From the NCBI GenBank assembly GCA_963722655.1, contig CAVRNT010000001.1, positions 162,612-226,611 of the forward strand: DNA of 64,000 nt, written 5' to 3'. This document shows positions 22,358 through 60,826 of this stretch, piece after piece. Position 1 is the first letter of the stretch, and every line of letters starts with the position of its first letter. A model generated the notes under the pieces. It did no database searches, was not told the DNA's origin, and saw only the letters and a list, made by a program, of their open reading frames with translations. Position numbers and translations under genes: made by a program. Source of the DNA: an uncultured bacterium. GTDB lineage: Bacteria > Patescibacteriota > Minisyncoccia > UBA6257 > GWB1-50-10.

Positions 22358-22359
22358 CA

Positions 22360-26979: not shown

Positions 26980-27065
26980 CCTTCAAGCTAAGATTTAGAC
27001 TCAAACTCCGATTAGCCGCCCTCCATTAGGCGGCTTTTTGTCAACCATCTGCTATAATAAAACCA

Positions 27066-35927: not shown

Positions 35928-35928
35928 A

Positions 35929-36516: not shown

Positions 36517-36517
36517 C

Positions 36518-36811: not shown

Positions 36812-36818
36812 AATCCGC

Positions 36819-38549: not shown

Positions 38550-38600
38550 GCGCGCCGAGACTTTTTCGTGTATGATTAGTAGAAGTCAGCGCGCGACCAT

Positions 38601-39680: not shown

Positions 39681-39696
39681 GTTATAATTAAAGGAA

Positions 39697-40902: not shown

Positions 40903-40964
40903 AATCAAGATAGTCGCCTAAACTTAACTGTAAACCTTAAGAACGTCGCTATAATAAAAAACAA

Positions 40965-42371: not shown

Positions 42372-42373
42372 TT

Positions 42374-42418
42374 GGGATCATCGGGATCATTGGGATCATC
42401 GGGATCATCGGGATCGAC
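42374..42418. repeat. 9-bp tandem repeat (GGGATCATY) x5 immediately outside the IS right end
   Basis: Read directly: gggatcatc gggatcatt gggatcatc gggatcatc gggatcg. Confidence 0.7.
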
Positions 42419-42721
42419 CGTCACTATTGATAGGCCGACAGAGTTTGATTTCCCTATTTGTTCTGGTAGTGCTGACGAATGGTGTAAAGAGAACGGTTAT
42501 TCTGCTGGCGGCTCCGACAGCGCGCCATATGGTGGTGGTACTTGCCAAACATACACAGGAGGCAATTGGCATGCCGGCAACAATGCGTGGGTAGGTGCGA
42601 TTTGCAACGAGTAATCTGTGCGCGTTCGTTGCTCTTGTCTTCACATCTATTTACATCACGATCCAAAAATTCTTCTACATCCTAACCGAGATGTTGATTA
42701 TGTTATAATGTAAGTAAGTAA

Positions 42722-43144
42722 ATGGTCGATAAACTCAGCAAATCATCAATGTTAAAAAACGAAAGAGGTTTCACGCTCATTGAAATGCTCGTCGTGATCG
42801 CGATGATCGGCATCCTGTCGGCCGTCGTCTTGACCGCCCTCGGCCCTTCCCGCAATAAAGCGAAAGATACGAGGATTATTTCCGATGTGAACCAAGTCAG
42901 GGCTTTAGGTGAAACCGATTATAATGCAACCGCAGGCACTTATGCCGATTGCAGTAATAGTGCTACCGCTGCCATTAGTAATTTGGCAACGGATATCACC
43001 AGTCAAGGAGGGGCGCTAACGGTGAACTGTAACACTGGTAGTACTCAAGCTGCTTATTCCTCGAGCTTGAACGCTGGTGGAAATTATTGCGTCGACACGA
43101 CCGGCAAAACGTCCAGCAATGCGGCGACCGGCGGGGGCTGCTAA
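42722..43144 (+). CDS. pilA: type IV pilin (pilin 2)
   Basis: Prepilin signal and first ~55 codons are nucleotide-identical to pilin 1 (~150 bp). Divergent C-terminal half ending in the Cys-loop ...YCVDTTGKTSSNAATGGGC. TGNTATAAT extended -10 box 12 nt upstream. Confidence 0.8.
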   Translation: MVDKLSKSSMLKNERGFTLIEMLVVIAMIGILSAVVLTALGPSRNKAKDTRIISDVNQVRALGETDYNATAGTYADCSNSATAAISNLATDITSQGGALTVNCNTGSTQAAYSSSLNAGGNYCVDTTGKTSSNAATGGGC

Positions 43145-43235
43145 ATTGAATTCGTCAAAAAGGGAAGATCGGCGGTGGAAAACCGCCGGTCTTTTCTTTG
43201 ATTTTGCGCGGCGATTTGGTATGATTAACGTAGAT

Positions 43236-43703
43236 ATGCGCAGAGAAACATCCGGTTTCACCTTGATCGAGATGCTGATCGTCGTCGCAATTATCGGCAT
43301 CCTCTCATCCGTCATCCTCACGGCCTTGGGGCCGGCCCGCGACAAGGCCAAGGATGCCAGAATCATCCAGGAGGTGAACCAGGCCCGAGCCATCGCCGAA
43401 TCATTGGGCGCGAACGGGACCTACGGCGGCGTGCCGACCGTGACCGCCGACTCGGTCTCGTCCATCACCGACCCCGATTTGCAGTCGCTCGCCTCGGACA
43501 TTAAGACCCAAGGCGGCGGTCTTTACATGGAAAAGGCCCTCTCTTCTCCTTATAACTGGTACATTGTCTTCTCGGCCCTGAACACGCTGGTCGGGCCGCA
43601 GAGTGACCAGACTCAGTATTATTGCGTGGACAGCTCTGGTCACGCGGTCTACACGACGACGAACCCGGACGGGTCGCAGAACAGTTGCCCGACTGGTTCT
43701 TAG
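43236..43703 (+). CDS. type IV pilin-like protein (pilin 3)
   Basis: Leader MRRETSG/FTLIEMLIVVAIIGIL, C-terminal YYCVDSSG...SCPTGS disulfide loop. The ORF track opens upstream at 43077. Confidence 0.7.
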   Translation: MRRETSGFTLIEMLIVVAIIGILSSVILTALGPARDKAKDARIIQEVNQARAIAESLGANGTYGGVPTVTADSVSSITDPDLQSLASDIKTQGGGLYMEKALSSPYNWYIVFSALNTLVGPQSDQTQYYCVDSSGHAVYTTTNPDGSQNSCPTGS

Positions 43704-43708
43704 GTGGA

Positions 43709-44611
43709 ATGACGATTCAGGTTTACGTCCTGCTTTTTATCTTCGGGACCGCCATCGGCAGTTTTTTGAACGTTCTGATCTTCCGCTACGCGCCGGACCG
43801 GAAGCTCTTCGATTTAAAACGTCTCGGCGGCCGTTCCCACTGCCTTTATTGCGGCCACGAGCTCGGCGCTTTGGAGCTCGTCCCGATCTTGAGTTTCCTC
43901 TTCCAAGGCGGTAAGTGCCGCGTCTGTGGCCACCGGCTTTCGGTCCAGTATCCTATCGTCGAGGTCTTGAGTGGAGCGGTCTTCGCCGGGATACCGCTTT
44001 TTTTGAACTTTTTCTATGTCAAAAGCGGCGTTCTCTTCGCGGCCTTCGGCTTGCCGGTTTGGTATTACCTTTTGGCGCTGGCTTGGGTCATTGTCTTCCT
44101 CGTCTGGCTCACGATGGTCGTGATCGACCTCCGGCATTACGTGATCCCGAACGAACTGAATCTGCTTCTGGTCCTTTTGGGCGTCGTCATCGTGTTCTTG
44201 AACGTCCATTACGGCAGCGCGCTCTTTCCTTTCCGGCAGTCCTTCTTGGAACAATACCAACTGGTCTTCTCGCCCTTTCAAGACATCCTCGCGAACCACT
44301 TGCTCGGCTCGGCCTTCGGCGCGGCCCTCTTCGGCCTCTTGGTCTTTGTGAGCCGGGGCCGCGGGATGGGTCTCGGGGACGTGAAGCTCGCCGCCGTTGC
44401 CGGCTTTCTCCTCGGCTGGCCGGATATCGCTCTCGCCACCATGCTCTCCTTCATCTTAGGCGGTCTTTTTAGCTTGGTTTTGATAGCGCTGCATAAGAAG
44501 ACCATGCGTGACCGGATACCCTTCGCGCCTTTTATGGTCTTGGGATTCATTTTGACCGTCTTTTTCGGTGCGGCGGTCATCACCGGTTATTTCCACCTCT
44601 TCTCGCTCTGA
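43709..44611 (+). CDS. pilD: prepilin peptidase PilD (A24 family)
   Basis: N-terminal zinc-binding CLYCGHEL...CRVCGHRL, 8 TM helices, conserved Asp residues (DLRHYVIPNE ... GLGDVKL). Confidence 0.85.
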   Translation: MTIQVYVLLFIFGTAIGSFLNVLIFRYAPDRKLFDLKRLGGRSHCLYCGHELGALELVPILSFLFQGGKCRVCGHRLSVQYPIVEVLSGAVFAGIPLFLNFFYVKSGVLFAAFGLPVWYYLLALAWVIVFLVWLTMVVIDLRHYVIPNELNLLLVLLGVVIVFLNVHYGSALFPFRQSFLEQYQLVFSPFQDILANHLLGSAFGAALFGLLVFVSRGRGMGLGDVKLAAVAGFLLGWPDIALATMLSFILGGLFSLVLIALHKKTMRDRIPFAPFMVLGFILTVFFGAAVITGYFHLFSL

Positions 44612-46253: not shown

Positions 46254-48726
<2,473 letters not shown>

Positions 48727-48762
48727 TTTTGCGCTCGGCCGCCGTTTGCCTGTATAATCCCA

Positions 48763-49059
48763 TTGATGCTCACTAAAAAAGATCTGGAAAAACTGGCCGA
48801 GCTTTCCCGAATGGAGATCGGCGCCGGTGAGGAAAAGCTTTTGAAGGACTTGGAGAAGATTCTCGCTCATTTCGATGAGCTCAAGACCGTTCCGACCGAA
48901 GGCGTCGCGCCGATGACGGGCGGAACGGATGCCAAGAACGTCTTTCGGGAGGATGAGACCGGCAACGGCCTCTCGGGGGAGGCAGCCAAAGGCGAATTTC
49001 CGGAAAAGGAAAGAGGCTATTTGAAGGTCCCGCCGGTCTTTGACGCGGGAACGGATTGA
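48763..49059 (+). CDS. gatC: Asp/Glu-tRNA amidotransferase subunit C
   Basis: 98-aa helical protein immediately upstream of and overlapping gatA. TATAAT box 14 nt upstream. Confidence 0.75.
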   Translation: MMLTKKDLEKLAELSRMEIGAGEEKLLKDLEKILAHFDELKTVPTEGVAPMTGGTDAKNVFREDETGNGLSGEAAKGEFPEKERGYLKVPPVFDAGTD

Positions 49060-50510
49060 CGTATATGAACTTTGAAGAACTGACGATAAAAAAGGTCCGC
49101 GATGGTCTGACGAAGAAAACATTCTCCGCCGCCGAAGTTGCGGGGGAGTATTTGGAGCGGATCAAGGAAAAGGATGGCGATATCGGCGCCTATCTCTCAG
49201 TTTTTGATGAGCGGGCGCTCAAGACGGCCGCGGATGTGGACGAGCGGCGCGTCGCGGGCGAAAAATTGCCGCCCTTGGCAGGCGTGCCGGTGGCCTTGAA
49301 GGACAATCTGCTCGTCGCGGGGACGCGGGCGACGTCCGCTTCCAAAATTCTTGAGCATTACGTTTCTTCTTACGACGCGACGGTCGTGCGCAAGCTCGAG
49401 AACGCCGGTGCGGTGGTCATCGGTAAAACGAACATGGATGAGTTCGCGATGGGCTCCTCGACCGAGAACTCCGGTTTCCATCCGACGAAAAATCCTCACG
49501 ATCAAAGCCGCGTGCCCGGGGGTTCCTCCGGCGGCTCGGCCGCGGCGGTCGCCGCGGATACGGCCCTCGGCGCTTTCGGTTCGGATACCGGCGGGTCCAT
49601 CCGTCAGCCGGCGGCCTTCTGCGGCGTCGTCGGCTTCAAGCCGACCTACGGTGCGGTCTCGCGCTTCGGTTTGATGGCGATGTCCTCCAGCTTGGACCAG
49701 ATCGGGCCTTTTGCGAAGACCGTCGAGGACGCCGAGGCCCTCTTCGATGTCATCCGCGGTCGGGACGAGTTCGATGCAACGAGCGCGGACCTGCCGGAGC
49801 GCGAGCCGCTCGCGCGGGAGGCGCTCAAGGGATTGCGCGTCGGATTACCGAAGGAATACTTCTACACCGAAGGTTTGAGCGCCGAGGTCCAGCGCGGCGT
49901 CGATGAGGCGATCGATAAGTTCAAGAAGCTCGGCTTGAAGTTCAAGGAGATCAGTTTGCCCCACACCCGCTACGCCCTCTCGACCTACTACATCGTGATG
50001 CCGGCCGAGGTCTCGGCCAACCTCGCCCGCTTCGACGGCGTACGTTACCCAGGCCTGCCGCAAGTGAATGACAGCGCTGGTTCTTTGAAGGAGCTCTACT
50101 TCAAGACGCGCGGCGCGGGTTTTGGGACCGAAGTGCGCCGGCGCATCTTGCTCGGCACCTTCGTCCTCTCCGCCGGTTATTACGACGCTTATTATGCCAA
50201 GGCCCAGAAGGTGCGGCGTTTGATCAGCGAGGATTTCGAGAAGGCCTGGAACGAGGTGGACGCGATATTGACCCCGGTCACGCCCACGACCGCCTTCAAG
50301 TTCGGCGAGAAGACCGGCGACCCGCTCCAAATGTACCTATCGGACGTTTTCACCATCCCGGCCAACCTCGCGGGACTGCCGGCGCTTTCAATACCGATCA
50401 AGAAATATCCACTGGGTGGGAAAGAATTGCCGGTCGGATTCCAACTTATGGGTCCACGCCTCGCCGACAAGCTTATCCTCCATATCGGGAAGTTTTACGA
50501 GCAGGCGTAG
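49056..50510 (+). CDS. gatA: Asp/Glu-tRNA amidotransferase subunit A (amidase signature family)
   Basis: Amidase signature GGSSGGSAAAVAA...GSDTGGSIRQPAAFCGVVGFKPTYG, 484 aa. Confidence 0.9.
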   Translation: MTYMNFEELTIKKVRDGLTKKTFSAAEVAGEYLERIKEKDGDIGAYLSVFDERALKTAADVDERRVAGEKLPPLAGVPVALKDNLLVAGTRATSASKILEHYVSSYDATVVRKLENAGAVVIGKTNMDEFAMGSSTENSGFHPTKNPHDQSRVPGGSSGGSAAAVAADTALGAFGSDTGGSIRQPAAFCGVVGFKPTYGAVSRFGLMAMSSSLDQIGPFAKTVEDAEALFDVIRGRDEFDATSADLPEREPLAREALKGLRVGLPKEYFYTEGLSAEVQRGVDEAIDKFKKLGLKFKEISLPHTRYALSTYYIVMPAEVSANLARFDGVRYPGLPQVNDSAGSLKELYFKTRGAGFGTEVRRRILLGTFVLSAGYYDAYYAKAQKVRRLISEDFEKAWNEVDAILTPVTPTTAFKFGEKTGDPLQMYLSDVFTIPANLAGLPALSIPIKKYPLGGKELPVGFQLMGPRLADKLILHIGKFYEQA

Positions 50511-50548
50511 CTCATCGGAAAACAAAACCGCCATTTAGGCGGTTCTTG

Positions 50549-50623
50549 CGCTCGCGACGGGATTTGAACCCGTGATCTTCCCCGTGACAGGGGGACGTGT
50601 TAACCAGGCTACACCACACGAGC
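50549..50623 (-). tRNA. tRNA-Asp (anticodon GTC)
   Basis: Acceptor GCTCGTG/CGCGAGC, anticodon stem TCCCC/GGGGA with loop CTGTCAC. Confidence 0.75.
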
Positions 50624-50770
50624 AGGACCTACTCAGGTTAATTGATGTTAAAGTATTTTTCAAATACGGCAACTTGTTGCGGCTACCCGCAACCAGAAGA
50701 GAGGTCGGTGGAAGGCGGAAGCCGTCCTCCGTATTGGAAAAGATTAGAAACCGAGGGTTTCTAAAACGCA

Positions 50771-50794
50771 GAAAAACTGCGTAAGCAGTTTTTC
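50771..50794. terminator. 10-bp perfect hairpin gaaaaactgc-gtaa-gcagtttttc between the tRNA genes
   Basis: Perfect inverted repeat with flanking A/T runs on both sides, so it could terminate in either direction. Confidence 0.5.
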
Positions 50795-50799
50795 AAGTT

Positions 50800-50873
<74 letters not shown>

Positions 50874-50935
50874 GCCGACATAATATCAGGAAATTTGAAA
50901 AAAAGCAAAGTAAATCCTATAATCTTTTCAAATAG

Positions 50936-51009
50936 GGCTGGGTAGCTCAGTTGGTAAGAGCGTGGCACTCATAACGCCAAGGTCGTGGGTCCGACTCCCA
51001 CCCCAGCCA
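50936..51009 (+). tRNA. tRNA with CAT anticodon (elongator Met or Ile2-lysidine; cannot be distinguished)
   Basis: Acceptor GGCTGGG/CCCAGCC, anticodon loop CTCATAA. Confidence 0.7.
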
Positions 51010-51022
51010 CTAAAGAAATTTT

Positions 51023-52213
51023 ATGCAGGTCTATCGTGACGAATATTCGAAAAAAGGAGCACCCACGGGAGGGGACATCGTAGGATATAAGGATCCTGCG
51101 GAGTTAGAGGCACTCTCCGTATTCAAAAAGCGCGACGATTTTGAGGCAATGAGGATACAGCGCCTACTGGAATTGCCAGACCTTACCCGTAAGGAAAACT
51201 CTCCGGTAAAATTTGTCATCGACCAGATTTTAAAGATTCCCGAATTCCGTGGATTCGATGTTTTAAAGATACCTGAGACGGTCAGCGTGGAAACAGGATT
51301 TGACCTATTAAATGTTCCTGCCGATCATCCAAGTCGCCAGTCGACAGATTCTTATTTTGTCGACCGGAACAGAGTACTAAGGACCCAGACGACGGCCATG
51401 TGGCCTTATTACCTCAGTGATCCTGAAATCAGAACTTGTCTGCAAACCAGAGGATATTTAGGGGCCCTTTGTTATGGGAAGGTCTATAGGAAGGACGAAA
51501 TCGATAGGAGTCATTTCCCGGTGTTTCACCAAATCGACGGATTGTATATCAGCAGGCGGAACGACAAAAAAATTACATTGGAGACATTACAGGGCGTCCT
51601 CTCCGATATTATTAAGTCCGTTTTCGGAGCCAATATAGAATTTAGGTTTTTGGAGGATACCTTTCCGTTCACGCATCCTAGCACCCAAGTGGAAATCAAG
51701 CGCGGCGAGGGTTGGCTGGAAGTTGTCGGTGGGGGTCTGGTGCACGACAATGTTTTGAAAAACCTCAATCTCGACCCGGGAATTTATAACGGCTGGGCTT
51801 TTGGCTTTGGCTTGGAGCGGCTGGCGATGATTAAAAATAACATTCCGGACATTCGCATTCTATGGTCAACCGATCCACGTATAGTTAAGCAGTTCGTGGG
51901 TATAGATAGTCAATTCAAGGAGGTGAGCAAATACCCGGCCATCATGCGCGATATTTCCTTCGTCGTCGATTCCTCTTTCGTCCCCAACGACTATTTTGAC
52001 CTCATCCGCGACATCGGCGGCGATCTGGTGGAGGAGGTTTCCTTGCTGGATAAGTACGAGAACGCGGCGAAGTTCGGTGCAGGGAAAGTGAGCTATACCT
52101 ACCGTATCGTCTATCGCTCGACCGACCGGACGCTCAAGACCGAAGAAATCAATCCCATCCAGGACAAAATAGTGGAAGAGACGAAGAAACAGTTCAAGGC
52201 GGAGGTTAGATAA
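51023..52213 (+). CDS. pheS: phenylalanyl-tRNA synthetase, single-chain type: PheS catalytic core fused to a C-terminal FDX-ACB anticodon-binding domain
   Basis: Class II motifs (HPSRQSTDSYFV, FHQIDGL, GWAFGFGLERLAMI). C-terminal ~95 aa ISFVVD...RIVYRS... is a ferredoxin-fold ACB-like domain. Low GC. Confidence 0.65.
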   Translation: MQVYRDEYSKKGAPTGGDIVGYKDPAELEALSVFKKRDDFEAMRIQRLLELPDLTRKENSPVKFVIDQILKIPEFRGFDVLKIPETVSVETGFDLLNVPADHPSRQSTDSYFVDRNRVLRTQTTAMWPYYLSDPEIRTCLQTRGYLGALCYGKVYRKDEIDRSHFPVFHQIDGLYISRRNDKKITLETLQGVLSDIIKSVFGANIEFRFLEDTFPFTHPSTQVEIKRGEGWLEVVGGGLVHDNVLKNLNLDPGIYNGWAFGFGLERLAMIKNNIPDIRILWSTDPRIVKQFVGIDSQFKEVSKYPAIMRDISFVVDSSFVPNDYFDLIRDIGGDLVEEVSLLDKYENAAKFGAGKVSYTYRIVYRSTDRTLKTEEINPIQDKIVEETKKQFKAEVR

Positions 52214-54346
52214 CTATTCCGGGTGGACTTGGCTCGTGAACCGAGCCATCTCTTTTTGAAGCAGAGGGTGGGATTTTAAATGACGGTCCTCCTTGAGGAT
52301 TGCCCAAGCCTCCTCGCGCGCCTCCTTCACGAGCTCTGGGTTCTGAATGGCCTTCATCGCGAGGTCCGGCATCCCGGTCTGGGCGTTGCCCAGAAATTCA
52401 CCGGGTCCGCGCATCTTGAGGTCCCGCTCGGCGAGCTCGAAACCGTTTTTAGCCTCAACGATCGCCTTAATGCGCTCCTTCACTGTTTTCGATGAGGCGT
52501 CGGAGAAGAGGAAACAGTACGACTGATACTCGCCCCGGCCGACCCGGCCGCGGAACTGGTAAAGTTGGGCGAGGCCGAATCGATCCGCACCCTCGATGAG
52601 CATAATGGTCGCGTTCGGCACGTCGACGCCGACCTCAATGACGGCCGTCGTGACCAGAATGTCCGTTTTCCCGTCGACGAAATCACGCATCGTCCTTTCC
52701 TTCTCCGTCGCTTTTAGGCGGCCGTGAAGCATTGCGATCTTGAGGTCGGGGAATATCTTCTTCTTCAACTTTTCATGCTCTTCCTTGACCGACTTGAGTT
52801 CCAGCTTCTGGATCTCCGCCGGCGTCTCTTCCGTGGTCGGCTCGATGCGGGGACAGACGACAAAGACCTGGCGGCCGGATTTGATCTCCTCGCGGATGAA
52901 GGCGTAGGTCTTGGTCCGCTCCGCCGGCGCGACGGCCTTGGTGACGATCGTCTTGCGGCCCTTTGGCATCTCGGAGACGAGCGAGATGTCCAGGTCGCCG
53001 AAGAGCGTGAGGGAGAGCGTGCGGGGAATGGGAGTGGCAGACATCGAAAGGAAATGCGGGATCTCTTGCCTCTTGTCACTCATCTCTTGTCGCGTCAATT
53101 GGGCGCGCTGCTTCACGCCGAAACGATGCTGCTCGTCGACGATCACCAGAGCCAAATCGTTGAAAGTTATGCCTTTCTGAATGAGGGCTTGCGTGCCGAT
53201 TGCGACCTTCACCCGGCTGGAGCCGATCTCAGTGAGTGCTTTCTCTTTGGTTATAGTGCTTTCCAAGTTGTGGCCGTAAAAGAGACGCCGGTCGGACGAA
53301 GTGACGAGCGCCACACCGCCCTCGAACTCCGGGAAGAACTTCCGGAAGGTCAGGTAATGCTGGCGGGCGAGGATCTCGGTCGGCGCCATCAAGGTCGTCT
53401 GGAGACCCTGGTGGGCGGAGGAAAGCGCCGCGATTGCGGCGATGACCGTCTTCCCAGAACCAACGTCCCCTTGGAGCAGGCGGTTCATCGGCCGGACCGC
53501 CTCCATATCCTTCAAGATCTCCCAGAGCGCCTGTTTCTGTGAGCTCGTGAGCTCGAAAGGCAAATGTCCGAGCAGGTCCTTAATGAACGGCAGATCGATC
53601 TTTATCTCCAGCGCCTTTTGCTCGGCCAAGGCGATCTTCTGCTCCAGGTTCCAGAGCTGGAGGCAAAAGAGGTCGTTGAAGGCGAAGCGTTTTTTGGCGC
53701 GGAGTGCCTCCTCGATCGTCGAGGGGAAATGGATTTGCCGCAAAGCGGCGTTCAACTCCGGCAGGTCGTTCTTGGTGAGAATCGCGGCGGGGATCGGGTC
53801 GGGGAGCGCCCTCGAATCATCTAAGATCGGTTTCACGATGAATCGCAGGCCCTTGGAGGTGAGGCCGCGGGTCTCGGGATAGACCGGGACGATGCGGGCG
53901 GTGTGTTTGGTTTCTTGGAACTCACTCGTCATCTCATAGGTCGGGCTCGCAAGGTGGATTTCGCCGCCGTGGGAGGTCGCTACCTTTCCGGAGAAGTTGA
54001 ATGCCCGGCCGGGCTGGAGGATGTTGCGGACGTAGGGCTGATTGAACCAGACGGCGCGGATGGAACCGGAATCGTCAGAAATGATGGCCTCCACAATGTA
54101 GAGGTTCTTGCGGAAAGCGCGCCGGCCCTCGATCTCATCCACCGTTCCTTGGACCGTCGCCTCTTGGTTGGGGATGAGGTCGGCGATCTTGTAGACCTGG
54201 GAAAAATCCTCGTACCGAGCGGGAAAATGGAAGAGAAGGTCACGTACGGTCAAGAGACCGAGGCGTTTGAGGCGCGGGGCGAAGCGCGCGACGTTGCGGA
54301 TCTCGGCGAGCGGCGTTTCGGGTGAAAGAGCGCCCATTTGCGCCAT
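52214..54346 (-). CDS. recG: ATP-dependent DNA helicase RecG
   Basis: Wedge/OB N-terminus, helicase motifs GDVGSGKT, DEQHRFG, QFRGRVGRG, 710 aa. Confidence 0.9.
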   Translation of the reverse strand: MAQMGALSPETPLAEIRNVARFAPRLKRLGLLTVRDLLFHFPARYEDFSQVYKIADLIPNQEATVQGTVDEIEGRRAFRKNLYIVEAIISDDSGSIRAVWFNQPYVRNILQPGRAFNFSGKVATSHGGEIHLASPTYEMTSEFQETKHTARIVPVYPETRGLTSKGLRFIVKPILDDSRALPDPIPAAILTKNDLPELNAALRQIHFPSTIEEALRAKKRFAFNDLFCLQLWNLEQKIALAEQKALEIKIDLPFIKDLLGHLPFELTSSQKQALWEILKDMEAVRPMNRLLQGDVGSGKTVIAAIAALSSAHQGLQTTLMAPTEILARQHYLTFRKFFPEFEGGVALVTSSDRRLFYGHNLESTITKEKALTEIGSSRVKVAIGTQALIQKGITFNDLALVIVDEQHRFGVKQRAQLTRQEMSDKRQEIPHFLSMSATPIPRTLSLTLFGDLDISLVSEMPKGRKTIVTKAVAPAERTKTYAFIREEIKSGRQVFVVCPRIEPTTEETPAEIQKLELKSVKEEHEKLKKKIFPDLKIAMLHGRLKATEKERTMRDFVDGKTDILVTTAVIEVGVDVPNATIMLIEGADRFGLAQLYQFRGRVGRGEYQSYCFLFSDASSKTVKERIKAIVEAKNGFELAERDLKMRGPGEFLGNAQTGMPDLAMKAIQNPELVKEAREEAWAILKEDRHLKSHPLLQKEMARFTSQVHPE

Positions 54347-54458: not shown

Positions 54459-54511
54459 GTGGCGTATTTATACTATCCGAAATGCCACTGTCTTTTCAAC
54501 TTTAATCAACT

Positions 54512-54832
54512 TTAACTGGCTTGCCAAAGAATTAGCGTTATGGCTATTACGCCGAGGATCATACCGACAACTTCCATCGTCGAAACCTTTTCGTGGTAAA
54601 GAAATACTCCCAGTCCGACGGCGATGACGGCCGAGGCGACGGAAAATATCATCGCGCCGCGAGCGAGACCGGAGCCGTCCTTAAGGGCGAAAAGCCAGAA
54701 AACGTTCGCGATAATGTAACCCAGGATCGCCCCGACGAATCGTATAGCCAAGCCATGGAGCGCCCATTCTTTTGAAAGCACATCCGCAAGCAATTCGAAG
54801 GTAATAAGTAAGCTTAAGGGTATGATCCACAT
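54512..54832 (-). CDS. SMR family small multidrug-resistance / Gdx-like 4-TM transporter
   Basis: 106 aa, 4 TM, conserved membrane Glu in helix 1 (ITFELLADVLSKEWA). Confidence 0.7.
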   Translation of the reverse strand: MWIIPLSLLITFELLADVLSKEWALHGLAIRFVGAILGYIIANVFWLFALKDGSGLARGAMIFSVASAVIAVGLGVFLYHEKVSTMEVVGMILGVIAITLILWQAS

Positions 54833-55125
54833 ATTCTGTGCCCTTCAGAGGTCTCCACACTTCGTGGGCGAGACCCCACAAGCGTTCTTTGGGATCCCCT
54901 TCACTTTTCCCGCGAAGCACCTCGGTCGCGGACTGTGCAGATAGTGTAATGAGTCCTGGATGTTAATTCAAGAAAACAAAGCACCTCGGTCTGGGTAAAT
55001 GAGACAAACAAGAATTCCCAGGCCTACTTTTTAGTGTCTCATTCATTACCGTCAAATATGGGTCAGCCTTCCACTCGCGGAGGTGAAGAGATTGTCATAG
55101 CCGTATTTGGGGTTATATTTAAGGT

Positions 55126-55737
55126 ATGAACGAGGGAGTCGAGGGCGGATGGAGTTCAGTCGGCAATTGGCTGCTTGAACAGAATAGGAGGTTCTCGCTT
55201 TTCCAAACGGGCCGATTAAGCAGGCTTGAGCTTCTTAGAAATTACGAAATATCATCCCTCTTTCCCTGGGGTCTTATTCTGCTCATATTTCTCGGCTCGT
55301 GGGCGGTTGGCGGCGATACAAACTGGCAGCAGATGATTGGGACATCCGGCTTTGTGATTATCACGATCATCACCATCGTGGTTTACGTTGGTGCCGGACT
55401 TATCGGAGTATTCGCCGCAATCCAGCGATTTCACGATTTAGGCAAGTCAGGATGGCGAACCCTACTGCTGCTTATTCCGTTCGCGGTTCTCACTTACCCA
55501 ACTAGAGAGACTCCGAAAATATTTTTAGGGTTAAAGATTAACCCGGATGGTTCATTCTTCGAGGTGTATAACGGGCCAGGGAGATATATAAAGAAATTAG
55601 TTGTGGGACGTAAAGAACCGTATAACCGTTTGCATATTCTATCCTTAAAAAAGTTAGCCGAAATCTCGAGCAAAATACCTGCACATGAAAAAGTAAAAAC
55701 AAGAAAAGGAAAACGACCACTCACCTTTCCTCTATGA
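55126..55737 (+). CDS. DUF805-like inner-membrane protein
   Basis: Signature RFHDLGKSGWRTLLLLIPF and 3-4 TM helices. Confidence 0.5.
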   Translation: MNEGVEGGWSSVGNWLLEQNRRFSLFQTGRLSRLELLRNYEISSLFPWGLILLIFLGSWAVGGDTNWQQMIGTSGFVIITIITIVVYVGAGLIGVFAAIQRFHDLGKSGWRTLLLLIPFAVLTYPTRETPKIFLGLKINPDGSFFEVYNGPGRYIKKLVVGRKEPYNRLHILSLKKLAEISSKIPAHEKVKTRKGKRPLTFPL

Positions 55738-56291
55738 ATTTTCTAGATTTAAAATTCGAAATTGGGTTCTGGCATCCGTTTGGTCCGCATGGGGGAGAAA
55801 CCCCTGAAGAGATTATAAAAAGAAAACGGGGCGAGATTGGGAGAAACGGTTGGACTCTCTGGTCATTTCAATTCAGGAATACTCTCGGGCCCTGGTATCA
55901 GGAGATTGAGAAAATAGACCCAGGGAACGTCTTAGTCTTTTGCTCCGAAGGAAAAGGCGCGCGTGATCCCATAGGAGAGCGCAAGTATTGTAGCTATTAC
56001 ATACCCGTGGGAGAAGTTGCGCCTAGGAAGATTCCAATGGGAATACAAATCCCTCATCCTATGGGGAAGAAGACTAGGGGTTCCGCATTCATTGTTAAAA
56101 ACATTATTTGCCCCGCTGTTTACGAAGCGACGCCAATCGTATGGTTAAAGGGTAGCGGGTGGCAAACCGCACCGCTACCAACCCGGCCTGAGTATCTTAT
56201 AAAACCAGGGCAAGGTCAGCCCATGAGGAGGTTCCGGGCAGTACTTGAGCTTAAATGGCCATATCTTGCTGAGGTTGGTATTGCACATTAA
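55734..56291 (+). CDS. hypothetical protein (low-GC island)
   Basis: 185-aa ORF with no recognisable motifs. Confidence 0.3.
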   Translation: MNFLDLKFEIGFWHPFGPHGGETPEEIIKRKRGEIGRNGWTLWSFQFRNTLGPWYQEIEKIDPGNVLVFCSEGKGARDPIGERKYCSYYIPVGEVAPRKIPMGIQIPHPMGKKTRGSAFIVKNIICPAVYEATPIVWLKGSGWQTAPLPTRPEYLIKPGQGQPMRRFRAVLELKWPYLAEVGIAH

Positions 56292-56419
56292 GGCAATGTT
56301 TTCTTAATGCCTCATTTTCTATCAAGTATTTATTGGTTTGCCACATAGTCACCATGAATCCATCTAGACCCCCGAACATGGCCGATGGTAAATACCGGGA
56401 GCTAGATAATCTTTTGCTA

Positions 56420-57064
56420 TTATAGGTATCTGATTTCTCTGAGCTTTTCTAATAATTCCTTATCTGTCAAAACCGTCGTTTCGATCCTCTTGAGTCTAGT
56501 AGCGACCGCCCTAAGAAATGGCCTAGCCTCATTCCTCGTCTTGGGCTTAGCCCGTTCAATTTTTGTGATAACCCAATCTAAAACTCTTTTATCGCTGAAT
56601 ACTTTATAGGTGAGAATCTCTCTCCATAGCGCCCATAAACCAATTTTCTGTAATTTTTTCAGGGGGTTTTTGGCTAAAGTTGACGCTATCCTGAAATCAT
56701 TTCTTGTCTTGCTAATTTTGCTCCTGGGCATGTCCTTGCCTATAAGCGATGATCGTCCATAGAGTTGATTCCAAAAAATATTCTCTTCCTCAGAAGAAAC
56801 GCTGTTTTTCTCTAAAAACTTGTTGATTTTTGTACCTATAAGATACCACGCCCCTAGCATATCGTATTTGCGAGCATGGGGCGAAAGCATATTTTCTTTC
56901 ACTAAAATTCTCTCGATTTCTTTTATCTCTTTTCCTAACCTAGCGTCAAAACGATCCGCTTCCTTTATGTCTCGAGATGTAAGAATTCTTTTCGAACTTT
57001 TATATCCTTGGGATTTATCCGCCTTCTTGATTTTTATGGTCATTTTTGCTTTTTGAGATCCCAA
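56420..57064 (-). CDS. hypothetical protein, downstream partner of the GHKL ATPase gene (25-nt overlap)
   Basis: 214 aa, Lys/Arg-rich, AT-rich codons. Translationally coupled to 57040..59061. Confidence 0.5.
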   Translation of the reverse strand: MGSQKAKMTIKIKKADKSQGYKSSKRILTSRDIKEADRFDARLGKEIKEIERILVKENMLSPHARKYDMLGAWYLIGTKINKFLEKNSVSSEEENIFWNQLYGRSSLIGKDMPRSKISKTRNDFRIASTLAKNPLKKLQKIGLWALWREILTYKVFSDKRVLDWVITKIERAKPKTRNEARPFLRAVATRLKRIETTVLTDKELLEKLREIRYL

Positions 57065-59061
57065 ATGAATTCACTATAGCGCCTCAGGAATAACTGCCAC
57101 ACACCCGACACATCTTTTGATTTAACAAGATGACTAAATTCTTGGTCACTGTCGTCATCGTCGGCGATTGATTCTTCTAGTTTGATCTGAAAGGCAATGA
57201 ATATTGCTTGCTCCATTAGATATTCCGTCAGTTTTTCGAGATCACTAAGGAGTGGCTTGATACGCGGGTGAAGTTCATTGTAAAAAATGACGTGACCATC
57301 TCCCTCCGGCACCCATTCGAGTAAATAGTTCTTGTCGTCCCGCTCAACGCCCCGAAAATCGAACGGGCCTGATTCTGGTGGGTCTACCTCTACATAAAAT
57401 TTTTGATTTATCCGGTCGTACAAAATAGTGCCCTTCTCAATTTTTTTGCCGTCAGACAAAACAAGATCTTTTTTGTCTTCGAGCGAGACCATCCTTGCTC
57501 TCAATGAGTATCCGCCGGGGGTATATTTCTTGGATATCAAAATTGACCCTGCTCCTATTTCCGGCCCTCTTCCAGGGCGAAGATTTATTTCTTTTTCCTG
57601 CAAGAGTTCGGTTTTGCCTTCCGGGGAAACGACGAAAACGCGTACTAGGATATTTATATCTTCATTGATATCACTAATCGGTATCACATATGTCCCGTCA
57701 ATTTTCTCACCATAATTTACCCGCTTATTATCTCTTGGAAACTCTATGTCCGGAATCGACAGTCTCAATGGCTCCTTCTCCCTCCGAAAATGATCTTCTC
57801 GCTTTTTCTTTCCTATGTGCTTTCCAAACAATCCAAGCTTCTTAAATAATGGCGTTAAAAGCTTCAGTGCCTCAGCCTCGGCGTCTTTTTGGATTTTGTT
57901 CTTTTTTGACTGCTCCGACTCTATGATTTTTAATTCCTTAGCAAACTCTCTCGTTTTCGCTCTAAGATAATCTCTTAAGTATTTTGCTGGTTTCTGGGTC
58001 CAGCTAAAGTCGAAGTGCTCCGGCCCCTCGCATAGAATTTTCATTTCTTCCTCCAGTGGCTTGCCCTCCATTTCGAGCCATCCATAGATATCAACCATTC
58101 CCTTCTCATTAACAAGCTCATCCGCTCGAACCCTTTCGATCGTCATCCCTCCACGTTGTATGCCAATACCCCTCACCGACTCAGGAAGATTGAGATTGGG
58201 AGCATATCTCAGGACAAGGCGCTTCGTTTTATATAACGTACTTTCCTTGATGGCTTCTGGCTTGAACTCTAAACCCTCGACTCCCTTTACACTATCCTCA
58301 TACCAATAAGGAGTGCTTGCATATTTTTTACCATGTCCGTCATCAACAAAGATTTTTGATTCATATTTTTTAATAGTTTCCCAGCGCGAGCTGCTCACAA
58401 AGGAAAGCATTTGTCCTGTTTTGATAGCTTCGATCACGGACTGATCGGGATTAGTGATAAAGATCCTTGTTCCGCATGATACAAGGGGGGTTATTCCACG
58501 ATTAACACTCTCCTTAAATTCCTCTTTACCCTCTTGATCGTAATGTACCCTGAACTTGATTTGCTTGTCGCTATCCAAATAGATTTCCCCAAAGACATAC
58601 GAATTATCCGATGATCTCACAGAATCAAAAAACACTCTCCTTTTTTTTGAAGCGACTAGAAATAGTGTTTTGCCCCGTCCTCTGTTGCCCCCCTCCTCTC
58701 CTGATTTATCACTCCAATTTGAATTCAGAAAATTCGCTAGATCTTCACGCTTATCAGCCCCACTAAGAAGAATTTTATCCAACTCGCTGTCGCTAAAAAA
58801 TTTCGTCCCATTTAAGCCGCTCGTTCCCTGATCGGAGATGCAAATGACCTGCCCCTCCTTGGTGCTCATCAATGAAAAACCACACTCCCAATTCTTGCCG
58901 TGTTTTTTGTCTATTCTTGCGTCCCAGCTATTTTGAATGGCGTCTTTCTGTAAACCATCGGCCAGCCAAAGCTCATGGCCTATCTTTGTCCTATAGCCGT
59001 CAGCCAGAGCTTCTATGGCTTTTTCATTATTTGTCCTCTGGGTATATATTTTTCGTTCCAT
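57040..59061 (-). CDS. GHKL-superfamily (HATPase_c / Hsp90-MORC-like) ATPase-domain protein with a large uncharacterised C-terminal region
   Basis: Bergerat-fold motifs near the N-terminus: N-box HELWLADGLQKDAIQNSWDARIDK, G1 ISDQGTSGLNG, G2 GGNRGRGKTLF. 673 aa. Low GC. Confidence 0.65.
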   Translation of the reverse strand: MERKIYTQRTNNEKAIEALADGYRTKIGHELWLADGLQKDAIQNSWDARIDKKHGKNWECGFSLMSTKEGQVICISDQGTSGLNGTKFFSDSELDKILLSGADKREDLANFLNSNWSDKSGEEGGNRGRGKTLFLVASKKRRVFFDSVRSSDNSYVFGEIYLDSDKQIKFRVHYDQEGKEEFKESVNRGITPLVSCGTRIFITNPDQSVIEAIKTGQMLSFVSSSRWETIKKYESKIFVDDGHGKKYASTPYWYEDSVKGVEGLEFKPEAIKESTLYKTKRLVLRYAPNLNLPESVRGIGIQRGGMTIERVRADELVNEKGMVDIYGWLEMEGKPLEEEMKILCEGPEHFDFSWTQKPAKYLRDYLRAKTREFAKELKIIESEQSKKNKIQKDAEAEALKLLTPLFKKLGLFGKHIGKKKREDHFRREKEPLRLSIPDIEFPRDNKRVNYGEKIDGTYVIPISDINEDINILVRVFVVSPEGKTELLQEKEINLRPGRGPEIGAGSILISKKYTPGGYSLRARMVSLEDKKDLVLSDGKKIEKGTILYDRINQKFYVEVDPPESGPFDFRGVERDDKNYLLEWVPEGDGHVIFYNELHPRIKPLLSDLEKLTEYLMEQAIFIAFQIKLEESIADDDDSDQEFSHLVKSKDVSGVWQLFLRRYSEFIWDLKKQK

Positions 59062-59063
59062 TT

Positions 59064-59300
59064 TTACAATTTAAACTCCTTGCTCTTGGGGAAGTGAAAT
59101 TTTGATTTTATTTCACGACCCCGACGTTCAATTTCGGAAAAGATTTTTCCGACATCTTCCTCGGAATAGTCATACGCGCTCCTATTTGAACAATTACCCA
59201 AGACCTTAAGCTTTTGGAGAACAGCGTTGGTACGTTGGGTTGCTAACCTCTTGAAACGTTCCCTTTTTTCTTCGTTATTATTTTTCATATACTTAGTCAA
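59064..59300 (-). CDS. hypothetical small basic protein upstream of the GHKL gene
   Basis: 78-aa ORF ending 3 nt before the GHKL start. Could be a regulator. Confidence 0.3.
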   Translation of the reverse strand: MTKYMKNNNEEKRERFKRLATQRTNAVLQKLKVLGNCSNRSAYDYSEEDVGKIFSEIERRGREIKSKFHFPKSKEFKL

Positions 59301-59489: not shown

Positions 59490-59990
59490 ATGACCAACCA
59501 AAGTAAGGGGTCGGCAGGAGCGGCGACCCGAGTAAGCCAACCGCTCCCAGTAAAGGTCGCGTACTGCCTCTACGCGAGGAAGAGCACGGAAAGCGAGGAA
59601 CAGCAGGTCCTCTCGATCGAGAGCCAGGTGAAGGAAATGCTCCAGATTGCCGAGCGGGACGGGCTCGTAATCACCGAGATCAGGAAGGAGAGTCACTCGG
59701 CCAAGGCGACCGGGGAGCGGGAGGTGTTCAACGGGCTCCTGAAGGACATCAAGGGCGGCAAGTTCAACGGCATCCTAACCTGGGCTCCTGACCGCCTGAG
59801 CCGGAATGCAGGTGACCTCGGGTCGCTGGTCGACCTCATGGATCAGAAGCTCCTCATCGAGATACGGACCTTCAGCCAGAAGTTCACCAATAGCCCGAGC
59901 GAGAAGTTCATGCTCATGATCCTCTGCTCAACGGCCAAACTCGAGAATGACAATAAGTCCGAGAACGTGAAGCGAGGCCTCCGAACCCGG
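59490..59990 (+). pseudogene. serine recombinase (resolvase/invertase or large serine recombinase) N-terminal catalytic domain, truncated by the IS3 insertion
   Basis: Catalytic YCLYARKSTESEEQQ..SIESQ, then ILTWAPDRLSRN and LENDNKSENVKRGL. The reading frame runs into the IS right end at 59991 and stops (…EQWQYPQS*). Confidence 0.7.
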
Positions 59991-60016
59991 TGTGAGCAGT
60001 GGCAATACCCCCAAAG

Positions 60017-60826
60017 TTAAGACACTTTTTCGACAAGTTTTTGGTAACGTTCTGCGAATAAGAGTGGTGGCATCTTGAGGATGGAATGAATCCTCTGGTG
60101 ATTGTAATGCCAGACAAGGCGATGAATCTCATAGACCAGTTCTCCCAACGTCTTGAATCTCTCCGGGTCTCCCAGGTCCACTTTGAATTTGTCATAGAAA
60201 GACTCTTGGTATCCGTTTTCCCAGGGAGAGGCTTTTGCGCTCCGGGATATCCGGATGCCAAACTCCATGAGAGTTCCTTCAAAGACCTTGGATCCATATT
60301 CTCTTCCGTTGTCCGAATGAAAGATGTTCGGCCTGGGATGGAACTCCACCGCAGAGAAGAAAGCTTGAAGAATCAATGGCACTGAATGAACATTCATCAC
60401 CGCGGAGCCCACAATCTCTCTCGTGAAGAGATCTAGTACGGTCGCCAGATACAGGAACTTTCCCTGATACGGAATGTACGTGAAGTCTGCCACCCAGATG
60501 TCATTGGGAAATCTCGGATAATTGGTTTTGAGGAGATTTGGGTACGGGGTTCTCGCCACGCCCATTTTTCTTGGCTTTCTTCCTCTTCTCCGATATGCCT
60601 TTATCCCGAAGAGTCTCATCACTCTCTGAGCTCTCTTCCGGTTCACATGAAGAGCGAGCGCCACTCTCGGGTAGCCGTAGCTCGGATCCTTCGAGAGCAC
60701 CTCCTCTATCTTTGTTTTGAGTTCCCAATCCTTTGGTATTTGCTTTGAGGCGTAGTACAGACTCGATCTCGAAATACCAAGCTCACGGGCCAGTGCTCGC
60801 TTCGTCTTCTTCTGCTTCTTGATCAA
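60017..60826 (-). CDS. IS3-family transposase OrfB (DDE)
   Basis: Identical 269-aa product to 41545..42354. Confidence 0.9.
   Translation of the reverse strand: MIKKQKKTKRALARELGISRSSLYYASKQIPKDWELKTKIEEVLSKDPSYGYPRVALALHVNRKRAQRVMRLFGIKAYRRRGRKPRKMGVARTPYPNLLKTNYPRFPNDIWVADFTYIPYQGKFLYLATVLDLFTREIVGSAVMNVHSVPLILQAFFSAVEFHPRPNIFHSDNGREYGSKVFEGTLMEFGIRISRSAKASPWENGYQESFYDKFKVDLGDPERFKTLGELVYEIHRLVWHYNHQRIHSILKMPPLLFAERYQKLVEKVS

What the first reader, a model, noticed from the sequence alone, without database searches (positions are those of the whole stretch)
51023..52213. Single-chain, mitochondrial-type phenylalanyl-tRNA synthetase (PheS core + FDX-ACB) with low GC
This 396-aa protein carries the class II PheS catalytic motifs. 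Instead of pairing with an adjacent pheT, it ends in a ~95-aa ferredoxin-fold anticodon-binding-like domain (ISFVVDSS…YRIVYRSTDRTL…). That layout is otherwise known from monomeric organellar PheRS and from the C-terminus of bacterial PheT. No pheT follows; the next gene is recG on the opposite strand. The gene is AT-rich compared with its GC-rich neighbours, which suggests acquisition.
Basis: partly seen in the sequence, partly recalled or inferred. Interest (0 to 1): 0.55.

Follow-up and report, generated by a model that had tools for sequence, protein, structure and literature searches.

The report
Single-chain PheRS typical of CPR bacteria
This gene encodes a one-piece phenylalanyl-tRNA synthetase of the kind known from mitochondria; it is the normal, inherited form in a huge group of tiny uncultivated bacteria (Paceibacteria/CPR), not a recent import, and the bacterial group branches beside the mitochondrial enzymes.

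Summary
ORF 51023-52213 (+) encodes 396 aa with a class II PheS core (aa 54-291) and a C-terminal FDX-ACB anticodon-binding domain (aa 302-396). No pheT is adjacent; recG abuts it convergently. The gene is AT-richer than its neighbours (GC3 0.57 vs about 0.78).

It is a mitochondrial-type single-chain PheRS. An AlphaFold model (pLDDT 92) superposes full-length on human mtPheRS (TM 0.75). The Phe-pocket residues and the four residues that read G34 of tRNAPhe are invariant.

"Acquisition" is not supported. Relatives occur in at least 529 Patescibacteria species genomes, and a related type in Gracilibacteria. The ligA-gatC-gatA-PheRS-recG neighbourhood recurs in distant relatives, and the nearest relative shows the same GC dip.

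In NJ trees the CPR proteins form a clade (80-88% bootstrap) sister to the eukaryotic mitochondrial plus giant-virus clade, not nested in it.

The protein misses all three NCBIfam cut-offs (SrmL, pheS_mito, pheS), and NCBI records call it "hypothetical". I could not test genome-wide absence of pheT directly. Published single-copy marker counts for 17 Parcubacteria genomes argue against a second PheS/PheT set.

I found no paper describing this in the library searched. Verdict: new member of a known kind, moderate interest.

The parts
51023..52213 (+). Gene for the single-chain (mitochondrial-type) phenylalanyl-tRNA synthetase, 396 aa plus stop
   Evidence: ORF; Pfam PF01409 + PF03147; best PDB sequence match is human mtPheRS, E 1e-60; AF2 model pLDDT 92.1; Foldseek TM 0.75 to 3cmq/5mgw
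51023..51181 (+). N-terminal region, aa 1-53: two short strands and two helices. It is much shorter than the N-terminal extension of the canonical PheS sequences used for comparison
   Evidence: AF2 secondary structure. No Phe_tRNA-synt_N Pfam hit. Median residues before q55: CPR 56 vs 128 in canonical PheS
51182..51895 (+). Class IIc catalytic core, aa 54-291. Motif 2: R156...H164, F168-H169-Q170-x-D172. Phe pocket: F214-P215-F216-T217. Motif 3: G257-W-A259-F-G261...E265-R266
   Evidence: Pfam. Alignment to E. coli PheS puts Ec T251 at T217 and Ec A294 at A259. These residues are invariant in 43 CPR homologues and conserved in the eukaryote/virus clade and in canonical PheS
51896..51925 (+). 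Linker, aa 292-301, joining the core to the anticodon-binding domain. The preceding DPRIVKQF segment aligns with both human DERFLKQF and E. coli DLRFLKQF (where canonical PheS ends), so it is not specific to single-chain forms
   Evidence: HMMER alignment to human mtPheRS; BLASTP alignment to E. coli PheS ends at q291; linker length 20-21 in CPR vs median 24 in clade B
51926..52210 (+). FDX-ACB (ferredoxin-fold anticodon-binding) domain, aa 302-396. D343, Y345, S357 and R396 are the predicted tRNAPhe G34-reading residues
   Evidence: Pfam 87.3 bits. Human D364/F366/S375/R414 contact G34 (PMC7540514) and align to D343/Y345/S357/R396, which are invariant or nearly so in CPR. The domain is 41-44% identical to fungal/human mito ABD vs 33% to E. 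coli PheT B8
50936..51010 (+). tRNA-Met (CAT) 12 nt upstream on the same strand; possibly co-transcribed (context only)
   Evidence: ARAGORN; sequence
46627..50510 (+). ligA, gatC, gatA: the conserved upstream neighbourhood that argues for vertical inheritance
   Evidence: NCBIfam gatA 588 bits. The same order is seen in L005, L007 and L051, and nearby in L002 and L045
52214..54346 (-). recG, convergent and abutting; a conserved downstream neighbour in some relatives
   Evidence: NCBIfam RecG 798.9 bits; recG lies downstream on the opposite strand in L045, L051 and L072

Best explanation
The gene encodes the organism's housekeeping phenylalanyl-tRNA synthetase in a single-chain, mitochondrial-type form. 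This form is inherited vertically within Paceibacteria-type Patescibacteria (CPR). Shown: the architecture, the fold, and conservation of the catalytic and anticodon-reading residues. Inferred by analogy with human mtPheRS: one polypeptide activates Phe with ATP in the class IIc core. The Phe pocket is F214/F216/T217/A259, the motif 2 arginine is R156 and the motif 3 arginine is R266. The FDX-ACB domain packs on the core in the closed state. On tRNA binding it swings out and reads G34 of the GAA anticodon through D343, Y345, S357 and R396. Phe is then transferred to A76. There is no PheT, hence no B3/B4 editing site, so fidelity rests on the synthetic site alone. Some relatives add a Trbp111/PheT-B2-like OB-fold tRNA-binding domain, either as an upstream gene or as an N-terminal fusion.
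For: Domain architecture is above Pfam thresholds. The best solved relative is human mtPheRS: 208 bits vs 160 for E. coli PheS. The AF2 model has pLDDT 92.1 and pTM 0.89. It superposes full-length on closed-state human mtPheRS (TM 0.74-0.76), whereas bacterial PheS covers only the core. The Phe-specificity residues equivalent to E. coli T251 and A294, and all class II motif residues, are invariant in 43 homologues. The four G34-contacting residues of human mtPheRS (PMC7540514) are conserved as D343/Y345/S357/R396. The family is ubiquitous: over 7000 homologues, with the top 120 all sharing this architecture, at least 529 GTDB species genomes including complete ones, and a Gracilibacteria type. 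No PheT (B3_4/B5/B6-7) ORF occurs in 0.93 Mb of flanks from 83 loci. Synteny with ligA-gatCA and recG is conserved. In 17 Parcubacteria genomes, including the complete RAAC4 genome, tRNA-synt_2d is found in 17/17 (one copy in 15) and FDX-ACB once in 16/17. This leaves no room for a canonical PheS/PheT pair in addition to a single-chain enzyme (PMC4508563 Table S2). COG0016 is in that paper's core-genome table while COG0072 (PheT) is not. tRNA_bind domains adjacent to or fused with the enzyme in relatives support a tRNA substrate.
Against: The protein is below every NCBIfam equivalog cut-off: SrmL 252.7 < 300, pheS_mito 244.6 < 258.35, pheS 181.8 < 237.45. The top-scoring model is a 'mystery ligase' of unknown role. 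Motif 2 has Asp (D172) where E. coli and human have Glu, although 21 of 79 eukaryote/virus members also have Asp. I could not check genome-wide absence of pheS/pheT for this organism; only 64 kb of a 379.5-kb contig is visible. The published core table also lacks AlaRS and IleRS COGs, so the absence of COG0072 there is weak on its own. I could not confirm that the 17 genomes' single hits sit on one protein. There is no biochemical evidence.
Confidence: 0.8

Rival explanations
1. The protein is an accessory PheS-related ligase (SrmL-like paralogue) with a non-translational or unknown role, and a canonical PheS/PheT pair elsewhere in the genome does the housekeeping.
For: The best NCBIfam hit by E-value is NF051887 'PheS-related mystery ligase SrmL'. 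NCBI records name the homologues 'hypothetical protein'. In one Gracilibacteria locus the homologue sits next to a 40-aa ORF and three radical SAM/SPASM genes.
Against: The score is below the SrmL cut-off (252.7 < 300), and none of 11 relatives tested reaches it. The Phe pocket, ATP motifs and G34-reading residues are all invariant. The gene is near-universal across at least 529 species genomes. Single-copy counts of tRNA-synt_2d and FDX-ACB in 17 Parcubacteria genomes leave no second set. The neighbours of the radical SAM cluster match no Srm family.
Confidence: 0.07
2. The gene was recently acquired from outside the lineage (a eukaryote, giant virus or unrelated bacterium), as the low GC would suggest.
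For: Gene GC3 is 0.57 vs about 0.78-0.81 in the flanking genes. The 17.6-kb segment containing it lies between two 99%-identical inverted IS copies and next to a low-GC island with a resolvase. The closest solved structure is mitochondrial.
Against: All close homologues (up to 75% identity) are Patescibacteria. The protein falls in the CPR clade, not in the eukaryote/virus clade: 80-88% bootstrap full-length and 73-78% core-only. The segment between the IS copies carries core genes (ligA, gatCA, recG) in an order conserved in relatives. recG, of normal GC, separates the gene from the low-GC island.
Confidence: 0.03
3. Function is as in the best explanation, but the copy in this lineage (window plus its nearest relative L002) replaced the ancestral one by transfer from a lower-GC Paceibacterium. 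The replacement is old enough to be partly ameliorated.
For: The GC3 lag is seen here (0.57 vs 0.78), in L002 (0.59 vs 0.65) and in L027 (0.37 vs 0.58), but not in low-GC relatives. Identity ratios are incongruent. PheRS is closer to L005/L007 (65/60%) than to L051/L045 (58/54%), whereas GatA shows the reverse (57/56% vs 64/63%).
Against: The gene sits at the conserved locus. GC1 and GC2 are low too, as expected for a highly constrained protein lagging behind a genome-wide GC rise. Only a few genes and loci were compared, and no trees of the neighbours were made.
Confidence: 0.2

Closest known systems
Mitochondrial monomeric PheRS (human FARS2, PDB 3CMQ/3TUP; yeast/fission-yeast Msf1; TIGR00469)
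   Same: Same architecture: PheS-type core, linker and FDX-ACB in one chain, with no B1-B7 domains. The full-length fold matches (TM 0.75). Identity is about 50% over the C-terminal 200 aa. The Phe pocket and G34-reading residues are the same.
   Different: Encoded in a free-living or episymbiotic bacterial genome. Below the TIGR00469 cut-off. Forms a separate sister clade. Lacks the post-motif-2 insertion of long eukaryotic forms: 19 vs median about 50 residues. Carries an 8-residue CPR-specific insertion at aa 125-150. Has no targeting presequence.
Giant-virus PheRS (e.g. Tupanvirus soda lake; about 345 aa)
   Same: Single chain of core plus FDX-ACB; compact; lacks the eukaryotic insertion.
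   Different: The viral proteins pass the pheS_mito cut-off and cluster inside the eukaryotic clade. The CPR protein does neither.
Canonical bacterial (alpha-beta)2 PheRS (PheS TIGR00468 plus PheT TIGR00472; E. coli 3PCO, T. thermophilus 1PYS)
   Same: Homologous catalytic core (35-39% identity) with identical specificity residues. The FDX-ACB domain is homologous to PheT domain B8 and has the same G34-reading residues.
   Different: No long N-terminal extension (and no Phe_tRNA-synt_N hit), no beta subunit gene adjacent, and no B3/B4 editing domain. The ABD is covalently attached to the alpha-type core.
NCBIfam NF051887 'PheS-related mystery ligase SrmL'
   Same: The 349-position model aligns over aa 63-386, so it covers core plus FDX-ACB. 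It is the best NCBIfam hit by E-value.
   Different: The score is below the curated cut-off. I could not retrieve any SrmL members or find any description, so its biology and its relation to the CPR enzymes remain unknown to me.

Membership tests
Class IIc PheRS catalytic core (Pfam PF01409 tRNA-synt_2d) | Profile match above the gathering threshold | tested here: met
   203.6 bits vs GA 19.8, aa 54-291
Class IIc PheRS catalytic core (Pfam PF01409 tRNA-synt_2d) | Class II motif 2 and 3 arginines, and Phe-pocket residues equivalent to E. coli F248/F250/T251/A294 | tested here: met
   R156, R266, F214, F216, T217 and A259; invariant or at least 90% conserved in 43 homologues
Class IIc PheRS catalytic core (Pfam PF01409 tRNA-synt_2d) | Phe activation and tRNAPhe charging activity | not testable with these tools
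   Needs biochemistry or complementation
Mitochondrial-type monomeric PheRS (TIGR00469 pheS_mito) | PheS core and FDX-ACB in one polypeptide, without PheT domains B1-B7 | tested here: met
   Pfam architecture; EcPheT matches only the last ~100 aa
Mitochondrial-type monomeric PheRS (TIGR00469 pheS_mito) | Score at or above the curated equivalog cut-off (258.35) | tested here: not met
   244.6 bits. Eukaryote and giant-virus clade members score 260-361
Mitochondrial-type monomeric PheRS (TIGR00469 pheS_mito) | Full-length fold like human mtPheRS | tested here: met
   Foldseek E 2e-33, TM 0.74-0.76 to 5mgw/3cmq over about 390 columns; model pLDDT 92.1
Mitochondrial-type monomeric PheRS (TIGR00469 pheS_mito) | ABD residues that read G34 (human D364, F366, S375, R414) | tested here: met
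   D343, Y345, S357 and R396
Mitochondrial-type monomeric PheRS (TIGR00469 pheS_mito) | Phylogenetic placement within the eukaryotic mitochondrial clade | tested here: not met
   The CPR clade is sister to the eukaryote plus giant-virus clade. NJ bootstrap: 80-88% for the CPR groupings and 86% for clade B full-length; 73-78% core-only
Mitochondrial-type monomeric PheRS (TIGR00469 pheS_mito) | Works without a beta subunit (no pheT in the genome; monomer) | tested here: inconclusive
   No pheT in the window or in 0.93 Mb of flanks from 83 loci. Single-copy tRNA-synt_2d and FDX-ACB in 17 Parcubacteria genomes. Whole-genome access and oligomeric state were not available
SrmL, PheS-related mystery ligase (NF051887) | Score at or above the curated cut-off (300) | tested here: not met
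   252.7 bits. Ten representative relatives score 194-274 and a Gracilibacteria homologue scores 232
SrmL, PheS-related mystery ligase (NF051887) | Whatever genomic association defines the family | not testable with these tools
   No description or members retrievable
Canonical bacterial PheS (TIGR00468) | Score at or above the cut-off (237.45) | tested here: not met
   181.8 bits
Canonical bacterial PheS (TIGR00468) | N-terminal Phe_tRNA-synt_N domain and an adjacent pheT | tested here: not met
   No PF02912 hit; N-terminus of 53 aa vs a median of 128 in canonical forms; the next gene is recG
Bacterial PheT (TIGR00472) | Full-length beta subunit with B1-B8 domains | tested here: not met
   Only profile positions 697-798 of 798 match; 83.7 bits vs cut-off 402.65

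The most novel reading that the evidence does not exclude
The one-piece PheRS (PheS core fused to the PheT B8 anticodon-binding domain) arose in bacteria, in or before the Patescibacteria/CPR radiation. The eukaryotic mitochondrial PheRS, and through eukaryotes the giant-virus PheRS, would then descend from such a CPR-type enzyme by ancient horizontal transfer, not from a fusion invented in eukaryotes or from the alphaproteobacterial endosymbiont. The evidence allows this: there is one monophyletic single-chain family, a CPR clade spanning at least two CPR classes, and reciprocal monophyly with the eukaryotic clade. The opposite direction (early eukaryote to CPR ancestor) fits the same tree.
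Probability: 0.25. Interest if true: 0.75.

Novelty: new member of a known kind. Interest (0 to 1): 0.5.

Why it matters
Papers I read here describe the monomeric PheRS as the mitochondrial/organellar type (PMC4494062, PMC6723311), and where it came from is, to my knowledge, unresolved. A very large bacterial sister clade changes that question. The fusion of the catalytic core to the anticodon-binding domain, and the loss of the beta subunit and its editing site, need not be eukaryotic inventions.

It also means a major bacterial radiation probably translates Phe codons without PheT-based proofreading. That is relevant to how ultra-small genomes economise: about 400 aa replace about 1100 aa.

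There are practical consequences too. NCBI records label these proteins "hypothetical" because they fall between three curated models. Marker sets that expect PheS and PheT, or that count FDX-ACB as "pheT", will mis-score CPR genomes.

For this particular window the gene is ordinary for its lineage.

Tried and rejected
1. Literature. All ten full-text searches found nothing on a CPR/Parcubacteria single-chain PheRS or on SrmL. Mukai 2017 mentions only CPR PheRS-beta lacking B2.

2. Direct genome-wide test for pheT was not possible.

3. The Minisyncoccus gene table was cut in storage and uninformative.

4. The Nelson & Stegen core table lacks COG0072 but also lacks AlaRS and IleRS COGs, so I treat it as weak evidence. 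The marker count table is more useful.

5. I suspected the 793-aa ORF at 4665-7046 was PheT; it is LeuRS.

6. I suspected the ~345-aa metagenomic relatives were a second prokaryotic group nested among mitochondrial enzymes. They include Tupanvirus and are most likely giant-virus genes.

7. I asked whether the Gracilibacteria radical SAM/SPASM neighbourhood defines 'Srm'. There was no support: no Srm family hits.

8. The post-motif-2 insertion does not polarise the direction of transfer, because the viral short forms lack it.

9. The afdb50 fold library was not available.

Full report
**Observation.**
The ORF is exactly where stated: 51023-52213 on the plus strand, ATG start, 396 aa. Pfam places a class II PheRS core (tRNA-synt_2d) at aa 54-291 (203.6 bits). 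It places a ferredoxin-fold anticodon-binding domain (FDX-ACB) at aa 302-396 (87.3 bits). Both are far above threshold.

The downstream gene is recG on the opposite strand (52214-54346), and its stop codon abuts the PheRS stop. Upstream lie ligA, gatC, gatA, tRNA-Asp and two tRNA-Met genes. The nearer tRNA-Met ends 12 nt before the ATG.

The window contains MetRS and LeuRS but no PheS or PheT. E. coli PheT (fetched) matches only the last ~100 residues of this ORF.

The gene is AT-richer than its neighbours: GC 0.478 and GC3 0.569, against GC3 of 0.78-0.81 for ligA, gatA and recG. A quarter of the large ORFs in this mosaic window are similarly low.

**What it is.**
By sequence, the closest solved proteins are human mitochondrial PheRS entries (3cmq and others; 208 bits, E about 1e-60). 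Identity is about 50% over the C-terminal 200 residues, including the linker and the FDX-ACB domain. E. coli PheS scores 160 bits. PheT chains match only through their last domain, at 29-38 bits.

An AlphaFold2 model built from 43 homologues is confident (pLDDT 92.1, pTM 0.89). Foldseek superposes it full-length on closed-state human mtPheRS (TM 0.74-0.76). The tRNA-bound open state gives TM 0.56. Bacterial PheS chains cover only the core.

The residues that define Phe specificity in E. coli PheS, T251 and A294, correspond to T217 and A259. These, the FPF motif (F214-P215-F216), the motif 2 arginine R156, H169-Q170 and motif 3 (G261, G263, E265, R266) are invariant or nearly so in the family.

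Four residues of human mtPheRS contact G34 of tRNAPhe: D364, F366, S375 and R414 (PMC7540514). They align to D343, Y345, S357 and the C-terminal R396. All are invariant or at least 90% conserved, and the same residues occur in E. coli PheT B8.

One deviation is Asp at position 172 where E. coli and human have Glu. A quarter of the eukaryote/virus clade also has Asp.

**Distribution and inheritance.**
The family is very large. There are more than 7000 database homologues. The top 120 all have PF01409 plus PF03147, are about 380-400 aa long, and are named Paceibacterota, Wolfebacteria, Harrisonbacteria, Portnoybacteria or Parcubacteria. NCBI labels them "hypothetical protein", JGI "PheRS alpha chain" and UniRef "phenylalanine--tRNA ligase".

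The best 80 carry Patescibacteria-type record titles. Many are labelled generically as "uncultured Candidatus Saccharibacteria". Two are complete genomes.

A deeper-branching type (about 410-456 aa) belongs to Gracilibacteria and "gcode 4" bacteria. So the enzyme spans at least two CPR classes.

The neighbourhood is conserved. A type IV pilus cluster, ligA-gatC-gatA and then PheRS appear in L005. ligA-gatC-gatA...PheRS...recG(-) appears in L051 and L045, and related orders appear in L002 and L007. These relatives are only 54-75% identical. None of 83 loci (0.93 Mb) has a PheT-like gene next to it.

**The GC claim.**
In low-GC relatives the gene has the same GC3 as its neighbours. In the higher-GC genomes it lags: this window 0.57 vs 0.78, its nearest relative L002 0.59 vs 0.65, and L027 0.37 vs 0.58. 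GC1 and GC2 are also low.

Two readings fit. One is a strongly constrained gene trailing a lineage-wide rise in GC. The other is an old replacement from a lower-GC Paceibacterium. Mildly incongruent identity ratios between PheRS and GatA give the second reading some support.

The data do not fit recent import from outside the lineage. The two 99%-identical inverted IS copies (41388-42388 and 59983-60983; rve transposase) bracket a 17.6-kb segment. That segment is made of conserved core genes plus a genuine low-GC island with a resolvase, and it is not a PheRS cassette.

**Is it the only PheRS?**
I could not read the rest of the genome. Indirect evidence comes from the published single-copy marker table for 17 Parcubacteria genomes, including the complete RAAC4 genome. 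tRNA-synt_2d occurs in 17/17 genomes (one copy in 15). FDX-ACB occurs once in 16/17 (PMC4508563 Table S2). If a canonical PheS/PheT pair coexisted with a single-chain enzyme, both counts would be two.

The same paper's core-gene table has COG0016 (16 genomes) but no COG0072. That point is weak alone, because the AlaRS and IleRS COGs are also missing. Together with universal presence, strong conservation and intact substrate-binding residues, I put the sole housekeeping PheRS reading at about 0.8.

**Relation to known families.**
The protein falls between curated models: SrmL ("PheS-related mystery ligase") 252.7 < 300, pheS_mito 244.6 < 258.35, pheS 181.8 < 237.45. That explains the "hypothetical" labels.

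An exhaustive HMMER search of 1.84 billion representatives found 393 with E <= 1e-30. I classified them by domain HMMs, NCBIfam and names. They fall into three groups:
- CPR sequences.
- A few canonical PheS.

None of the ten I tested reaches the SrmL cut-off.

In neighbour-joining trees (99 sequences, 354 columns) canonical PheS separates from all single-chain forms in 100% of bootstraps. The Paceibacteria clade gets 80%. Paceibacteria plus the Gracilibacteria type gets 88%. The eukaryote plus virus clade gets 86%. The catalytic core alone gives 100%, 73%, 78% and 77%.

The CPR groups share an 8-residue insertion at aa 125-150. The anticodon-binding domain is 41-44% identical to fungal and human mitochondrial ABDs, against 33% to E. 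coli PheT B8.

So the CPR enzymes and the mitochondrial enzymes appear to descend from one fusion and are sister groups. Caveats: simple distance trees, four outgroup sequences, and no SrmL or alphaproteobacterial sampling.

**Mechanism.**
This is inferred by analogy with human mtPheRS. A single polypeptide forms Phe-AMP in the class IIc site. The FDX-ACB domain, closed onto the core in the model, reorients to bind the anticodon stem-loop and reads G34. Phe is then transferred to A76. No B3/B4 editing domain exists, so there is no cis-proofreading of Tyr-tRNAPhe.

In six relatives a PF01588 tRNA_bind OB-fold (similar to PheT B2 and Trbp111) is present. It is encoded just upstream in L069, L060, L085 and L075, and fused N-terminally in L082 and L079. 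This is consistent with extra tRNA affinity being added in trans or in cis.

**Novelty and score.**
I found no paper in the searchable library describing a bacterial or CPR single-chain PheRS. Papers I read there describe the monomer as the mitochondrial type. The databases already contain thousands of these sequences, and NCBI curators have a related "mystery ligase" model.

For this window the gene is lineage-typical. As biology it is a new bacterial member of a known kind of enzyme, with a bearing on the origin of mitochondrial PheRS. Interest 0.5.

Noticed in passing
window 41388-42388 and 59983-60983: Two 1001-nt copies of an IS element, 99% identical and in inverted orientation. Each encodes a 269-aa rve-family transposase (41545-42354 + and 60017-60826 -). 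They bracket a 17.6-kb segment that contains ligA, gatCA, the PheRS gene, recG and a low-GC island. The segment could invert by recombination.
   Followed up: partly
window 54500-59300 (plus resolvase 59490-60020): A low-GC island (38-49% GC, GC3 0.41-0.59) just beyond recG. It has a small EamA-like ORF, a DUF805/DUF6998 protein, two ORFs with no family and a 673-aa ORF with no Pfam or NCBIfam hit. A serine resolvase and the second IS copy follow. This looks like the really foreign DNA in this neighbourhood.
   Followed up: partly
L069 ~5466-5960, L060 ~3590-4012, L085, L075 (upstream ORFs); L082 and L079 ~5547-7090 (fusions): In six Paceibacteria relatives a PF01588 tRNA_bind OB-fold (matching E. 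coli PheT residues ~40-150, the B2 domain) is present. It is encoded immediately upstream of the single-chain PheRS in four loci and fused to its N-terminus in two, giving a ~507-aa three-domain enzyme.
   Followed up: partly
L088 8001-13924 (Gracilibacteria, genetic code 25): Here the single-chain PheRS homologue is followed by a 40-aa ORF, a 243-aa ORF and three radical SAM/SPASM genes, a RiPP-like cluster. No Srm family or other specific family matched, so the adjacency may be a coincidence.
   Followed up: partly
P0154, P0287-P0405 (e.g. P0344 Tupanvirus soda lake): A large set of ~345-aa mitochondrial-type PheRS proteins from metagenomic contigs of up to 0.5-1.5 Mb includes Tupanvirus. 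They are probably giant-virus genes. They pass the pheS_mito cut-off and lack the insertion of long eukaryotic forms.
   Followed up: partly
window 51023-52213 and homologues P0007, P0024, P0054, P0080: Annotation gap. The family scores below the curated cut-offs of all three relevant NCBIfam models, and NCBI records call it 'hypothetical protein'. A published marker table counts its FDX-ACB domain as 'pheT'.
   Followed up: yes
window 40988-41199 and 42748-42959: A 212-nt direct repeat (91% identical) flanks the first IS copy, within a type IV pilin (N_methyl) gene region. This may be paralogous pilin genes or a duplication linked to the insertion.
   Followed up: no
window 34260-44611: A type IV pilus cluster (PilM, PilB-type ATPase, pilins, prepilin peptidase) lies upstream of ligA. 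The same pilus-ligA-gatCA-PheRS order occurs in relative L005.
   Followed up: partly
window 25324-29321: Two large ORFs (551 and 751 aa) have unusually high second-position GC (0.52-0.54) and no Pfam family. The 464-aa ORF at 32816-34210 has a similarly high GC2 (0.54) but does hit fn3 and Pur_ac_phosph_N. A neighbouring 447-aa protein carries BNR repeats and a Por_Secre_tail sorting domain.
   Followed up: no
window 9982-10904, 17823-22876, 50548-51010: There are sixteen tRNA genes in 64 kb, including a divergent pair of tRNA-Met(CAT) genes (50802-50873 - and 50936-51010 +) directly upstream of the PheRS gene. No tRNA-Phe is in the window.
   Followed up: no
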